Notes: generated by a model from the sequence alone, not told the origin. Shown: positions 59,406 to 63,215, counted from the first letter of the stretch. The stretch: 64,000 nucleotides of DNA from a virus (IMGVR_UViG_3300001472_000003:64001-128000); one strand, 5' to 3'. Translations and numbers: made by a program.

Positions 59406-60089
59406 ATGAATTTTGTTTGTGTTAATTTTGGCAACATGTACCATAATGCATATGTAGACGCTCTTTATTATATGATATTTATGCGTAATAAAATAAACAG
59501 CTTTACATGTATTACTGATAGAAAAAGAAATATTAGAAAAGAGATTAACCAAATAATAATTAGTGATGACGAATACGAAGGCGCATGGAATAAACTTTAT
59601 TGCTTTCATGATATAGATTTGCCGAATGAATTTGTATTATTGGATTTAGATATTGTATTGCAATCTAAATTTAAATTTAATGAACTAAAAGAAATAATTG
59701 ATAACAATAAGTTATTATTTGTTAATGCAGATTGGGCTATAGATAGTAGACCTTATCAGCCTACCCAAATAAATTCATCTTTACTGTATATTAATAAAAA
59801 TTTAAAATCCTATAATAAAATTAGAAAATCTATAGACAAGGGAGATTGGTATCCATATGCTACTATGGATAGATATTTATTTAATATACTTAATAAAAAA
59901 GAAATAGGTTATTTTGATTCATTAAAAATATATTCATATATGGATAATGAATATATGGAAAAAAATTATGATGTATGTCTTTTAAATAAATTTGATGGCA
60001 AAATATTCGATTATATTATAAGTAGTAACTGGATATTTAAATACTACCCAATTCATCTTTCATATCCATCCACATATCATATTGATTAA
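59406..60089 (+). CDS. Glycosyltransferase-like protein (GT-A, DxD)
   Basis: CVNFGxxY...YV, CITD, WNKL, LLDLDIV, INSS; only convincing plus-strand gene. Confidence 0.7.
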   Translation: MNFVCVNFGNMYHNAYVDALYYMIFMRNKINSFTCITDRKRNIRKEINQIIISDDEYEGAWNKLYCFHDIDLPNEFVLLDLDIVLQSKFKFNELKEIIDNNKLLFVNADWAIDSRPYQPTQINSSLLYINKNLKSYNKIRKSIDKGDWYPYATMDRYLFNILNKKEIGYFDSLKIYSYMDNEYMEKNYDVCLLNKFDGKIFDYIISSNWIFKYYPIHLSYPSTYHID

Positions 60090-60699
60090 TAATATATGAT
60101 ATAGTTATTCTGCTGCCAGATTTATTAGCCGCACAATGCCAAACTTTTTTATTGCCCTCATCATGACCACCAAAATACCCAGTTTTTACATTCCAACCAA
60201 TACTATCTTTATGTATAATATATTTTTTAGCACTTAAATCATATTCTTCAAAATATCCACCACCACAATCACTATATGTAAATAATACATTATATCCTCT
60301 AGCATTAGCATTATGATGCCATCCTATATATCCATTTACGGGGTAATATGTTAGCAAAGAATTGTTAGATGCACCTAATTCCGATGTCATATTATTAGCA
60401 AGACTCATGACTTTATCTCTATTATTTAATTTATGAGCACCTACACTTGTTCTATAGTCTATAAGTAATGAACATTCAGGAAAGCCTTCGTGCTTATTGC
60501 CATTCATAAGCCATTGATGGTAATCATAACTTGTTCCACTTGTAATATCCATTCCATCATTATACTCTTTACCATCTCTACCTAATCTTTCATCATATGC
60601 TATATCATATAATGTTTTAGTGTCTTCAGATAAAATATTATCTTTAATATCATTTAAAATATGTAATATACTTTTATTTTTAATCTCTATCTTGTCCAT
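60037..60699 (-). CDS. Cupin / 2OG-Fe(II) oxygenase-like protein
   Basis: YPVNGYIGWHHN...WHCA...RITISY (HxN..H..R layout). Confidence 0.6.
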   Translation of the reverse strand: MDKIEIKNKSILHILNDIKDNILSEDTKTLYDIAYDERLGRDGKEYNDGMDITSGTSYDYHQWLMNGNKHEGFPECSLLIDYRTSVGAHKLNNRDKVMSLANNMTSELGASNNSLLTYYPVNGYIGWHHNANARGYNVLFTYSDCGGGYFEEYDLSAKKYIIHKDSIGWNVKTGYFGGHDEGNKKVWHCAANKSGSRITISYIINQYDMWMDMKDELGSI

Positions 60700-61414
60700 C
60701 TATCCACTCTTTCTTTAAAGTATGATGCATTATAACTATATCAGATTTAACTTCAGATTTTTTATATGTATTAACATAATTCCATCTTGCATCGTCTTCC
60801 ATTATATCTATTTTCATTTTATGATTTTTTATATTTAAAAGGAACCACCATGCGAATTGGTCCCATTGTTTAACACTATTTAAATATTCAGGATATTTAA
60901 TAGTAAATTCTTTAGATGATTGATACTTAAATTGTTTATACCAAATATCTAAAAATTTTAAAATATGGGGCCTTTTCCAATACCCGAATATACCACAATG
61001 ATGAATCATTTTTGCATTGTCATTTTTTTCTTTTGTTAAAAATACTTCTGCTGCAGCATATTTACGAATTGAGGTAGTACATATATCTGCTTCATCCGAT
61101 AATTGATCAAAGATTAAGGATATATCTTCATGCATAATTTCCGTATCTGCATCTATATAAAATGTTTTATCATATGGAGTCTTAGATAACATGTACAGTT
61201 TAGTACGAATATTATATGGACAATCAGTTATAATAGAATCAAATACACCAGAGTTATTGGCTATTGTCCTCCATCGTTCCTCAGTATATAAAGTAATATT
61301 TGCTTCAGGGTAATAATCTTTTAAAGATTCTGCAGAATATATTGCACTATGAAGATATGGTATTTTGCACGTAGCAGCATACATAAACCCATTTTTATTT
61401 TTTATTTCGTTCAT
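60680..61414 (-). CDS. Nucleotide-diphospho-sugar transferase (GT8-like)
   Basis: TPYDKTFYIDADT, WDQF, RWN, IMHH. Confidence 0.75.
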   Translation of the reverse strand: MNEIKNKNGFMYAATCKIPYLHSAIYSAESLKDYYPEANITLYTEERWRTIANNSGVFDSIITDCPYNIRTKLYMLSKTPYDKTFYIDADTEIMHEDISLIFDQLSDEADICTTSIRKYAAAEVFLTKEKNDNAKMIHHCGIFGYWKRPHILKFLDIWYKQFKYQSSKEFTIKYPEYLNSVKQWDQFAWWFLLNIKNHKMKIDIMEDDARWNYVNTYKKSEVKSDIVIMHHTLKKEWIDGQDRD

Positions 61415-61808
61415 TAATTATACCAACAATTGTGTTTACTAAAACTTCCATTTTATTTTTGGATTTTCGTATAGAACGTTTAAATTCTTTGTTGGTTGTA
61501 TTTTTTACTTCATCCATCTCAAATGCTTCAAGTTTTGCCATAAACAATTCTTCACCATCTATTCTTGCTTTATTTTCAACATCACGTTGATTTTTTCTGC
61601 TTTGCATTTCTCTAAATATGCGCAAAGATTCATCAGTATTTTTATCTATTTGTTGGATTGTATATTGTGATATAAGTGATTTATAATCACTATTTCTTTC
61701 ATCTCTAGGTATAATAATTTTTACCTTATTACCATTATCATCAACACTATTAACTTCTATTTGTTTTTTTTCTTCTGGTATTAACCATTTGGGTTCTATA
61801 TATCTCAT
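61395..61808 (-). CDS. Hypothetical protein
   Basis: LFMAKLEAFE...IRKSK motif; co-transcribed with repeat protein and GT. Confidence 0.7.
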   Translation of the reverse strand: MRYIEPKWLIPEEKKQIEVNSVDDNGNKVKIIIPRDERNSDYKSLISQYTIQQIDKNTDESLRIFREMQSRKNQRDVENKARIDGEELFMAKLEAFEMDEVKNTTNKEFKRSIRKSKNKMEVLVNTIVGIINERNKK

Positions 61809-61811
61809 AAT

Positions 61812-63215
61812 CTATGCTATCCTCAACCATAATGCAATTGTTGTAATACTGTTTTTAGAACTTGATACAGTATCACTTGTGAAATTACCTGTATAATTAC
61901 CACTATATTCTGCTGTAAAATCCCTAGAATATGACCCAGTAAACATACGTGTATACTCTCTATTATATATGCCTGTAAAACTACCAGTATATTGCCTATT
62001 ATAAGATCCTGTATATTGCCTATTATACGATCCAGTATACTGTCTATTATATGTTCCCGCATAATAGCCAATATATGATCCTACATATGAACCTGTAAAT
62101 CCAACTGGGCCAACTCTAGTATAACTTCCAGTATAATAATTGTAATGATAGCTAGGCCTTCCATTAAAATATGAAGTACCTACATGACGGGCATATGTTC
62201 CGGTAAAATATCCAGTTATTTGTTGTGATGTATAAGTTCCAGTATAACTTCCAGAATAACTCCCCGAAAAATTTGTTGTTAATGCACCTGTATATTGTCC
62301 TGTATATTGGCCGGTATATTGGCCACTATAACTTGCTGTAAAATCTCTATTATATACTCCTGTATATTGTCCAGTAAAGCTTCCTTGATATTGACCAGTA
62401 AATAATCCAGTATATTGTCTATTATATGTTCCTGTAAATGATCCTATGTATGTATTTGCCGCAACTTGTTGCCTTGTATCAATAAATGTATCACCTACTT
62501 GAACCCATGTTCCAGTTGTTGGTGGTATTGTGGCTAACGAATATCTACCCACTTCTGTAGATGCAATTCTATTTCTATATCTATCTGTTAATGTTTCTAT
62601 TTCAACATCAGTCATTTCTTGCATTGTGCCATCTATACCAAGCTTTAATGGTCTTATTACTGTTGGTAAAGAATCATTTGTTTTTTTCCAAAGATAAGAT
62701 GTGTTAGAAGAACTACCCCCACTACCTCCAAATGTATCTGTTAATGATGCAACTGATACCCAAGTGCCTGAAAATATTGTAGCGGGAGTTGCTGTAGAAA
62801 GATAATATTGACTTATAGATGGTGTTGATGTATTAGCTAAATTAGATGAAATATAATTCATAATATTGTTATCTAAATTATTACTAGACATTGGTCTAGG
62901 TTTTTTATTATCTAATTCTAAAGGACTAACAGTTGTTTCTGATACTGAGACAAGATTCTGTGATAAAGTTGTAGTAGTTGTAGTTATTTGACCATTTGCT
63001 GGATGTGTGCCAATAGACTCCACTCTTGCAGTATCTGAAAAATAACCTATTGTAGTACCAACACCTGCTATATTTAATGCACCTGTACTATTATCAGACT
63101 CTAATGATACTTTTCTTAATACTAAGTGTGTGATATAATCCATATCTGTATTAGACATTTCTTGAATATCAACTGAAGTATTTCCAGTTCGTATTAATTT
63201 TAAAGGGTTGCCCAT
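61812..63215 (-). CDS. Putative fibre-tip protein with (Y/F)xGx tetrad repeats
   Basis: Three PLxL...QEM repeats followed by about 42 aromatic tetrads; directly downstream of a fibre gene. Confidence 0.7.
   Translation of the reverse strand: MGNPLKLIRTGNTSVDIQEMSNTDMDYITHLVLRKVSLESDNSTGALNIAGVGTTIGYFSDTARVESIGTHPANGQITTTTTTLSQNLVSVSETTVSPLELDNKKPRPMSSNNLDNNIMNYISSNLANTSTPSISQYYLSTATPATIFSGTWVSVASLTDTFGGSGGSSSNTSYLWKKTNDSLPTVIRPLKLGIDGTMQEMTDVEIETLTDRYRNRIASTEVGRYSLATIPPTTGTWVQVGDTFIDTRQQVAANTYIGSFTGTYNRQYTGLFTGQYQGSFTGQYTGVYNRDFTASYSGQYTGQYTGQYTGALTTNFSGSYSGSYTGTYTSQQITGYFTGTYARHVGTSYFNGRPSYHYNYYTGSYTRVGPVGFTGSYVGSYIGYYAGTYNRQYTGSYNRQYTGSYNRQYTGSFTGIYNREYTRMFTGSYSRDFTAEYSGNYTGNFTSDTVSSSKNSITTIALWLRIA
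61872..62450 (-). repeat. 12/24-nt coding tandem repeats (YTGQ, YTGSYNRQ)
   Basis: e.g. cctgtatattgt/cctgtatattgg/ccggtatattgg and three 24-nt units near 61984-62060. Confidence 0.85.

What the first reader, a model, noticed from the sequence alone, without database searches (positions are those of the whole stretch)
61872..62450. Mirror-symmetric 19+19 aromatic tetrad 'needle'
19 tetrads (YIGS...YTSQ), a short break, 2 tetrads, a unique tip (VGTSYFNGRPSYHYNY), 2 tetrads, a break, then exactly 19 tetrads (FTGS...FTSD). Equal arm lengths despite slippage-prone 12/24-nt DNA repeats suggest selection for a very long antiparallel hairpin. In the simple register Arg tetrads face Gly/small tetrads. 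The needle is inserted after the DT motif of the third of three internal repeats, suggesting a pseudo-trimeric monomer capping a trimeric fibre.
Basis: partly seen in the sequence, partly recalled or inferred. Interest (0 to 1): 0.75.

Follow-up and report, generated by a model that had tools for sequence, protein, structure and literature searches.

The report
Tyrosine-ladder beta-hairpin needle, phage protein
A tail-region protein of an uncultured marine T4-like phage has a small three-fold base, and one of its hairpins is drawn out into a roughly 35 nm two-stranded ribbon of four-residue tyrosine repeats whose two arms are kept matched across a family of over a thousand sequence clusters with no annotation and no solved structure.

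Summary
Window 61872-62450 (minus strand) encodes residues 256-448 of a 467-aa protein: 19 tetrads, a tip zone, then 19 tetrads.

The hairpin reading is strongly supported by comparison with relatives.
- Among 56 homologues with one recognisable tip motif, 41 have exactly matched arms (0.45 expected by chance), over 24 arm lengths from 16 to 136 residues.
- Irregular units are mirrored about the tip.
- Phe/Tyr identity covaries between the arms in one antiparallel register only (odds ratio 29.7, against 0.7-2.4 when slid). The window's own protein follows this rule: four Phe-Phe rungs, p = 0.002.

The N-terminal 250 residues are three internal repeats. They are predicted with high confidence, and their best structural matches are MABP/perforin-2 P2 beta-prisms (Z 5.4-5.9, weak). 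The needle is the extended hairpin of the third repeat.

Not supported or untested:
- Arg-facing-Gly complementarity is no better than chance.
- Capping of a trimeric fibre could not be tested.
- Single-arm length variants exist, including the closest homologue.

Function is inferred: a length-tunable virion appendage. It is always followed by three conserved genes: a small protein, a GT-A-like protein and an oxygenase-like protein.

This scan has already met the same family on several other phage genomes. I found no paper or library entry that describes it.

The parts
61812..63215 (-). Whole gene, 467 aa (P0001), single copy in a complete 149.5-kb virus genome with direct terminal repeats
62931..63215 (-). 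Internal repeat 1 of the base domain (aa 1-95)
   Evidence: hhalign repeat 1 vs 2 probability 96.9%, 1 vs 3 97.7%. AF2 pLDDT about 86-96.
62658..62930 (-). Internal repeat 2 (aa 96-186)
   Evidence: hhalign repeat 2 vs 3 probability 99.1%, E 7e-19
62451..62657 (-). Internal repeat 3, N-terminal part up to the DT motif and an 8-residue linker (aa 187-255)
   Evidence: G235-T236-W237 and Y256 are invariant, and D246 and T247 nearly invariant (90% or more), in 73 homologues.
62223..62450 (-). Arm 1: 19 tetrads (aa 256-331)
   Evidence: Phe 260, 272, 280 and 292 pair with Phe in arm 2.
62100..62222 (-). Tip zone (aa 332-372). The symmetry centre lies at about aa 351-354. This is the most variable part among close relatives (22-29% identity against 74-77% for the base, in three of the four close relatives).
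61872..62099 (-). Arm 2: 19 tetrads (aa 373-448)
   Evidence: Phe 413, 425, 433 and 445 are the partners of the arm 1 Phe.
61815..61871 (-). C-terminal return strand (aa 449-467) that closes the hairpin of repeat 3 inside the base domain. It carries the family's conserved T449, L462, W463 and R465.
   Evidence: AF2 block means over the last three 10-residue blocks 82, 92 and 96, strand E436-465. Conserved columns.
61395..61808 (-). Conserved 137-aa neighbour of unknown function, found downstream of the needle gene or genes in 9 of 9 loci examined
   Evidence: No Pfam or NCBIfam hit.
60680..61414 (-). Conserved 244-aa neighbour, GT-A / nucleotide-diphospho-sugar-transferase-like (a lead only)
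   Evidence: Present in 9 of 9 loci. Atlas feature score 0.97 to Nucleotid_trans/GT8 clusters. No Pfam hit.
60037..60699 (-). Conserved 220-aa neighbour, Asp/Asn-hydroxylase / 2OG-oxygenase-like (a weak lead)
   Evidence: Present in 7 of 9 loci; the other two loci end before the gene would lie. Atlas score 0.93. No Pfam or PDB sequence hit.

Best explanation
Shown by comparison. The protein has a conserved base of about 250 residues made of three homologous repeats, each ending in a beta-hairpin. The hairpin of the third repeat is drawn out into a two-armed antiparallel ribbon of [Tyr/Phe]-[Thr/Ser]-Gly-x tetrads. The chain leaves the base after the DT motif, runs about 100 residues out, turns near residues 351-354 and returns. 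The last 19 residues close the repeat inside the base.

In the register fixed by covariation (residue i pairs with residue 705 - i):
- aromatic faces aromatic;
- Gly faces Gly;
- Thr faces position 4.
One face is therefore a ladder of Tyr-Tyr or Phe-Phe rungs every four residues, separated by Gly-Gly gaps. The other face is polar.

Because both ends are fixed in the base, the two arms have to stay equal. Slippage in the 12/24-nt repeats produces single-arm variants, which stay rare or get matched by a change in the other arm.

Inferred. If the ribbon is straight, it is about 35 nm long. The protein is a virion appendage of the tail-fibre module, held by its conserved base. Its length (5-45 nm in ordinary relatives) and variable tip set how far and what it touches on the host envelope. 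This is analogous to the membrane-binding hairpin of the perforin-2 P2 domain. The three conserved downstream genes probably fold, attach or modify it.
For: Arm equality:
- The tip motif lies exactly at the centre in 41 of 56 homologues that have one motif match (0.45 expected), over 24 arm lengths from 16 to 136 aa.
- Irregular 5- or 6-residue units are mirrored about the tip: 81 matches against 43 under circular shifts that keep the periodicity, and 120 against 77 +/- 6 under shuffling.

Covariation:
- Phe-Phe pairs number 233 observed against 77.8 expected, OR 29.7, in one register only. Registers slid by 4, 8 or 12 residues give OR 0.7-2.4 (patterns).
- In this protein, 4 of 4 arm 2 Phe face Phe, p = 0.002, while slid registers give 0-2 matches.

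Structure prediction:
- For P0001, the base and the C-terminal strand have block-mean pLDDT of mostly 86-96 (base) and 82-96 (C-terminal strand), and the arms are predicted as long strands.
- For the 320-aa homologue P0121, mean pLDDT is 89.6 and pTM 0.80, with one continuous hairpin E234-270 / E273-318.

Base domain:
- Three repeats are confirmed.
- Both models give the same top five structural matches, all MABP/P2 beta-prisms, at Z 5.4-5.9 for the top three and 4.6-4.8 and 3.5-3.6 for the two perforin-2 entries. The next hits are at Z <= 2.8.
- The P2 domain is pseudo-threefold and has a 45 A hairpin needed for membrane binding (PMC6989145).

Context:
- T4-like structural genes and tail-fibre genes lie on both sides.
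- The same gene order occurs in relatives.
- The base is conserved at 74-87% identity, while the tip is 22-29% in three of the four close relatives.
- Two balanced length classes, 415 and 330 aa, occur within one 90%-identity cluster.
Against: - AF2 confidence in the arms is low (pLDDT about 40-50 in P0001, 56-62 in P0121). Its apparent register differs by one residue from the covariation register.
- Unbalanced natural variants exist:
  - P0002, the closest homologue, has 48 against 76 residues, on a single contig.
  - A 399-aa variant lacks 12 aa in arm 1 and is seen on 7 contigs, against 10 for the balanced form.
  - Single-arm deletions of 8, 18 and 22 aa occur on 1-2 contigs.
  - P0033 and P0053 are also unbalanced.
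- The giant C48C1 homologue has about 1570 aa of repeats on one side of a globular insert and about 70 aa on the other.
- The structural Z-scores are below the level the tool regards as clearly meaningful.
- Nothing shows that the protein is in the virion, what its oligomeric state is, or what it binds.
- The sequences are related, so the p-values are inflated. The slid-register controls are the fair comparison.
Confidence: 0.6

Rival explanations
1. The hairpins are not free two-stranded ribbons. Two or three chains would pack their Tyr/Gly faces together into a four- or six-stranded needle, like the trimeric six-stranded gp37 tip of T4, with tyrosines in place of the iron-histidine core.
For: In the covariation register, one face carries all the aromatics and glycines and the other is polar. 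This amphipathic pattern would favour burial. T4-type fibres are trimers, and the gp37 needle is a trimer whose chains run to the tip and back (PMC6957217). A two-stranded ribbon tens of nm long may need support.
Against: The base is itself pseudo-threefold within one chain, which is more typical of a monomer. There are no HxH motifs. There is no sequence or fold match to gp37: the BFVD top hit has E 0.12 and TM 0.10. Oligomer prediction could not be run.
Confidence: 0.25
2. The protein is not an envelope-contacting appendage. It would be an assembly strut, ruler or chaperone lying along the neighbouring trimeric fibre, or a scaffold whose Thr/Ser/Asn-rich polar face is the substrate of the conserved glycosyltransferase-like and oxygenase-like neighbours.
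For: The gene lies directly downstream of a fibre gene and is followed by three conserved genes in 9 of 9 loci. Two of these look like a GT-A transferase and a hydroxylase (leads only). The commonest tip motif is conserved and hydrophobic rather than hypervariable.
Against: The length varies many-fold among phages with similar neighbours. Some phages carry a short and a long paralogue in tandem. Long members carry large globular inserts at the tip, which fits a distal functional end. No enzyme assignment reached a curated threshold.
Confidence: 0.12
3. The repeat region is a disordered Tyr/Gly/Ser-rich low-complexity region or a parallel beta-solenoid, and the 19 = 19 symmetry is accidental.
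For: The composition resembles Tyr/Gly/Ser-rich low-complexity domains. AF2 confidence in the arms is low.
Against: Neither reading predicts arms equal to the residue over 24 length classes, mirrored bulges, or Phe/Tyr covariation in a single antiparallel register. Neither predicts a C-terminal strand that returns to the base.
Confidence: 0.03

Closest known systems
MABP / perforin-2 P2 beta-prism domain (PDB 6sb1, 6u23, 3tow, 2qp2 C-terminal domain, 8b6v C-terminal domain)
   Same: A pseudo-threefold domain built of three hairpin-containing modules. In perforin-2, one hairpin is extended (45 A) and is required for binding bacterial-type lipids (PMC6989145). These are the only structural matches that stand out for both models.
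   Different: Z is only 5.4-5.9 for the top three (4.6-4.8 for 6sb1, 3.5-3.6 for 6u23), and no sequence or Pfam match exists. Here each repeat also carries a helix. The hairpin is built from tetrad repeats, is about 8 times longer in this protein and far longer in relatives, and varies in length. There is no MACPF partner domain.
Needle domain of the T4 long-tail-fibre tip, gp37 (described in PMC6957217; PDB 2XGF recalled from my own knowledge)
   Same: A phage fibre element in which each chain runs to a distal receptor-binding tip and back, so the N- and C-terminal ends of the segment lie together.
   Different: gp37 is an obligate trimer with seven Fe ions held by His residues. Here there are no HxH motifs, no detectable homology, a tetrad repeat, and a base with pseudo-threefold symmetry within one chain.
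gp38-type adhesins of T2/S16-like phages
   Same: A gene directly after a fibre gene.
   Different: There is no sequence match. gp38 uses a polyglycine-II sandwich with three-residue periodicity, not a four-residue beta-ribbon. Capping was not tested here.
Single-layer beta-sheets with cross-strand aromatic ladders (OspA and its engineered self-assembly mimics), and Tyr-over-Gly packing ('aromatic rescue') in beta-barrels (my own knowledge; the term is used in bioRxiv 10.1101/2020.10.22.346965)
   Same: Solvent-exposed two-dimensional beta structure stabilised by ladders of aromatic side chains next to glycines.
   Different: Those are short segments inside larger folds. None is a natural, repeat-encoded, length-variable hairpin of tens to hundreds of residues per arm.

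Membership tests
MABP / P2-type beta-prism | Internal pseudo-threefold repeat | tested here: met
   hhalign between the three segments gives probability 96.9-99.1%, E 1.7e-10 to 7e-19
MABP / P2-type beta-prism | Fold similarity to solved MABP/P2 domains | tested here: inconclusive
   VIA-align Z 5.4-5.9 for the top three matches, 113-119 residues aligned. The same five entries head the list for two independent models, and the next hits are at Z <= 2.8. Foldseek found nothing.
MABP / P2-type beta-prism | Sequence match to the family profile | tested here: not met
   No Pfam, PHROG or NCBIfam hit for P0001 or P0121
MABP / P2-type beta-prism | One module's hairpin extended beyond the prism (as in perforin-2) | tested here: met
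   AF2 strands and the returning C-terminal strand, and cross-arm covariation
T4 gp37-type needle | HxH iron-binding motifs along the needle | tested here: not met
   No H-x-H anywhere in P0001
T4 gp37-type needle | Homotrimer forming a six-stranded needle | not testable with these tools
T4 gp37-type needle | Chain runs to the tip and returns | tested here: met
T4 gp37-type needle | Sequence or fold homology | tested here: inconclusive
   No family hit. A T4 protein 37 fragment is the top BFVD row, but at E 0.12 and TM 0.10.
Parallel beta-solenoid repeat proteins | Successive repeats stack in parallel, with the termini at opposite ends | tested here: not met
   Covariation and mirrored bulges are antiparallel about a central tip, and the C-terminus returns to the base
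Disordered Tyr/Gly/Ser low-complexity region | No positional constraint between distant segments | tested here: not met
   Arms are equal to the residue in 41 of 56 homologues, and Phe/Tyr covariation is register-specific

The most novel reading that the evidence does not exclude
A previously undescribed way of building a virus fibre. A single chain makes a free two-stranded beta-ribbon whose register is set by an aromatic ladder (Tyr-Tyr and Phe-Phe rungs over Gly-Gly gaps). Its length is tuned by matched repeat expansions in both arms, from about 5 nm to possibly more than 200 nm: one relative has 1440 residues of almost perfect tetrads between the same anchors. A dedicated three-gene cassette that always follows the gene matures or decorates it.
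Probability: 0.35. Interest if true: 0.9.

Novelty: new variant of a known kind. Interest (0 to 1): 0.75.

Why it matters
The family is large. A profile search found 1049 cluster representatives at 50% identity with E <= 0.001, 228 to 4046 aa long. It has no annotation. In the phage record collection it occurs in only one record, which names no host. It therefore marks a common but unrecognised component of marine and freshwater T4-like phages.

If the reading holds, these would be the longest beta-hairpins I know of. They would be a natural example of a protein whose two halves must co-evolve in length and in residue identity, and so a direct readout of how slippage-prone repeats are kept in balance. 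The aromatic-ladder rule is simple enough to test and to reuse in the design of rigid protein rods of set length. Needle length and tip could also help explain host range in phages whose hosts are still uncultured.

Tried and rejected
- Pfam, PHROGs and NCBIfam gave nothing for the needle protein.
- Foldseek against PDB and BFVD gave no match with E <= 0.001.
- Arg-facing-Gly complementarity was tested family-wide. Arg-Arg pairs were 5 observed against 4.0 expected in the facing register, the same as in slid registers. I rejected it as a rule, although so few pairs are expected that the test had little power.
- A PSSM for the tip turned out to be circular, because it was trained on centred motifs. 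I replaced it with a position-agnostic regex count.
- A crude repeat mask for the very long members gave unreliable arm lengths. A palindrome scan showed more mirrored matches at the midpoint than the median centre in all of the 23 long proteins that were scored, but the midpoint was not always the best centre. This is only suggestive.
- The search for related loci with the family alignment failed because no stretch was conserved enough.
- The literature searches found no description of this family.
- megablast of 20 kb of the window against phage records found no match.
- Sequence searches of the two enzyme-like neighbours against PDB and Pfam gave nothing usable.

Full report
**What is there.** The finding lies in a 467-aa ORF on the minus strand, window 61812..63215 (P0001). 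Its coordinates, 61872-62450, are exactly residues 256-448.
- Residues 256-331 are 19 tetrads.
- Residues 332-372 hold a 5-residue unit, two tetrads, a 16-residue unique tip, two tetrads and a 4-residue break.
- Residues 373-448 are 19 tetrads.
- In the 38 arm tetrads, position 1 is Tyr or Phe 37 times, position 2 is Thr 22 times, and position 3 is Gly 25 times and Arg 8 times.
- The DNA carries several 12-, 24- and 48-nt tandem arrays in both arms.

The description is correct.

**Setting.** The window belongs to a complete 149.5-kb virus genome with direct terminal repeats, and the gene is single-copy. The window carries T4-type terminase, sheath and portal genes. The terminase is at most 59% identical to those of Synechococcus myophages, and G+C is about 30%. 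Tail-fibre-like genes lie on both sides of the needle gene.

**The family.**
- The needle protein has no Pfam, PHROG or NCBIfam match.
- It has at least 227 homologues in the word-indexed search.
- A profile search found 1049 cluster representatives at E <= 0.001 (456 at <= 1e-30), from 228 to 4046 residues long.
- Only one record in the phage collection, the Kyanoviridae-classified Phage C48C1, carries it.
- All members share a conserved N-terminal domain of about 250 residues, then the repeat region, then a conserved 19-residue C-terminal tail.

**The base.**
- Profile-profile comparison shows that the N-terminal domain is three homologous repeats (probability 96.9-99.1%).
- AlphaFold2 predicts the domain, and the returning C-terminal strand, with high confidence: block means mostly 86-96 for the base and 82-96 for the C-terminal strand in P0001, and 93-98 for most of the base in the 320-aa homologue P0121.
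- Each repeat ends in a hairpin that begins at a DT motif. The needle is the hairpin of the third repeat, and the tail is its return strand.
- Foldseek found nothing.
- The exhaustive aligner gave the same five top entries for both models, all MABP/P2-type beta-prisms: Mp2Ba1 and Plu-MACPF C-terminal domains, MVB12B MABP and perforin-2 P2. Z was 5.4-5.9 for the top three, and everything else was at Z <= 2.8.
- These scores are below the tool's comfort level, so I treat the fold assignment as probable, not shown.
- The perforin-2 P2 domain is pseudo-threefold and carries a 45 A hairpin that is required for binding bacterial-type lipids (PMC6989145). This is the closest working analogy.

**Is it a hairpin?** Four independent lines say yes.

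1. *Arm equality.*
   - A position-agnostic pattern for the commonest tip motif matches once in 56 homologues.
   - In 41 of them the distances to the two anchors differ by the same constant. About 0.45 would be expected if the motif were placed at random.
   - This holds over 24 different arm lengths, from 16 to 136 residues (earlier versions).
2. *Mirrored irregularities.*
   - Units of 5 or 6 residues lie at mirrored heights.
   - There are 81 matches against 43 under circular shifts that keep any periodicity, and 120 against 77 +/- 6 under shuffling.
3. *Covariation.*
   - Take the register in which the first Tyr of arm 1 and the residue after the last tetrad of arm 2 sum to a constant.
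   - In that register Phe faces Phe far more often than expected: 233 against 77.8, odds ratio 29.7.
   - Registers slid by 4, 8 or 12 residues give 0.7-2.4. The patterns are visible by eye.
   - The sequences are related, so the p-value is inflated. The slid controls share that relatedness and show no effect.
4. *The window's own protein obeys the rule.*
   - With i + j = 705, Phe 260, 272, 280 and 292 face Phe 445, 433, 425 and 413.
   - That is 4 of 4 arm 2 Phe, hypergeometric p = 0.002, while slid registers give 0-2.

AlphaFold2 also draws a hairpin: one continuous hairpin in P0121, E234-270 / E273-318, and long strands in P0001. Its confidence in the arms is low, and its apparent register is one residue off the covariation register.

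**What the register implies.** Aromatic faces aromatic, Gly faces Gly, and Thr faces position 4. One face is therefore a ladder of Tyr-Tyr or Phe-Phe rungs every four residues over Gly-Gly gaps, and the other face is polar. At about 3.3 A per residue, the roughly 105 residues from the DT motif to the turn give about 35 nm if the ribbon is straight. This length is an inference.

**Limits.** The constraint is strong but not absolute.
- The closest homologue, P0002 (70% identity, one contig), lacks 28 residues in arm 1 only.
- Within 90%-identity clusters there are single-arm deletions of 8, 18 and 22 residues on one or two contigs. The balanced forms are on about 22 to 90 contigs.
- A 12-residue single-arm deletion is nearly as common as the balanced form, 7 contigs against 10.
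- These variants may be real slippage alleles or collapsed repeats in short-read assemblies. I cannot tell which.
- In contrast, a 415-aa form and a 330-aa form in one cluster are both balanced, with mirrored bulges.
- The recent DNA duplications in P0001's two arms differ in sequence but face each other: 62287-62324 encodes aa 298-310, and 61984-62051 encodes aa 389-411 (with the register). This fits compensating expansions.
- The giant C48C1 homologue (3347 aa) has about 1570 residues of repeats before a globular insert of about 1400 residues, and only about 70 after it. Simple two-arm pairing cannot describe every member.
- In very long members, mirror matches at the midpoint are above the median but are not always the maximum.

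**Claims not upheld.** Arg tetrads do face non-Arg tetrads in P0001 (8 of 8). That has about a 46% chance of happening by accident, and the family shows no Arg-Arg avoidance.

**Neighbours.**
- Three genes always follow the needle gene or genes: a protein of 137-165 aa, a GT-A-like protein of about 243 aa, and an oxygenase-like protein of about 220 aa.
- The first two are present in 9 of 9 loci and the third in 7 of 9. The other two loci end too early to show it.
- This holds even where the needle proteins are only 26-39% identical.
- The enzyme assignments rest on language-model look-alikes only. Nothing reached a curated threshold.
- Some phages carry a short and a long needle gene in tandem: 479 + 1703 aa and 791 + 1499 aa.

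**Function.** Nothing here shows what the protein does.
- The conserved base (74-87% identity among close relatives), the variable tip (22-29% in three of the four), the many-fold length variation, the globular inserts at the tip of long members, and the position inside the fibre module all point one way. They suggest a virion appendage held by its base, with the tip pointing outward.
- An oligomeric needle, or an assembly or scaffold role, remains possible.

**Prior knowledge.** I found no paper describing this family. Other agents of this scan have reported the same kind of fold-back Tyr-repeat protein on several other phage genomes. I looked at those notes only after the analyses above. They agree with the hairpin reading and did not change it.

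Noticed in passing
window 60037-61808 (minus strand); loci L002, L004, L005, L007-L012: A three-gene cassette follows the needle gene or genes in every locus examined: a 137-165-aa protein, a GT-A-like protein of about 243 aa and an oxygenase-like protein of about 220 aa. This holds even at 26-39% needle identity, which suggests a dedicated folding, attachment or modification system.
   Followed up: partly
L010:6001-12571, L011:6001-12913, L009:6001-12096: Some relatives carry two needle genes in tandem, one short and one long: 479 + 1703 aa and 791 + 1499 aa. In L009, a 554-aa gene is followed by a 712-aa C-terminal fragment. The 1703-aa protein has 1440 residues of almost perfect tetrads between the usual anchors.
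   Followed up: partly
L005:112-10155 (Phage C48C1, OQ984149.1): A 3347-aa homologue has the same base and C-terminal tail. It has about 1570 aa of 8- and 12-residue Arg-rich repeat units, then about 1400 aa of globular domains interspersed with short repeat stretches, and only about 70 aa of repeats before the tail. Its arms are therefore very unequal.
   Followed up: partly
proteins P0019, P0048, P0126: These homologues carry two tip-like motifs placed symmetrically (for example 48 residues from either anchor). This suggests a W-shaped double fold-back rather than a single hairpin.
   Followed up: no
proteins P0012, P0015: Their C-terminal parts leave the tetrad pattern and end in unrelated Leu/Thr/Gln/Asp-rich sequence without the family tail. 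This looks like a frameshifted reading of the repeat DNA, from a sequencing or assembly error or a broken gene.
   Followed up: no
loci L002, L003, L007, L008-L011, upstream of the needle gene: A giant protein of 1300-2045 aa with Pfam DUF4815 lies upstream of the needle gene, separated by one to five mostly fibre-like genes, in the relatives with enough flank. The window's own upstream fibre gene (63228 to beyond 64000) runs off the window.
   Followed up: no
window 59406-60089 (plus strand): A second glycosyltransferase-like gene (phrog_1962, E 5.7e-06) faces the cassette on the opposite strand. It is conserved in the two closest loci (55-77% identity) and has weak matches (about 29-31% identity) in three of the distant ones (L004, L008, L012).
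   Followed up: partly
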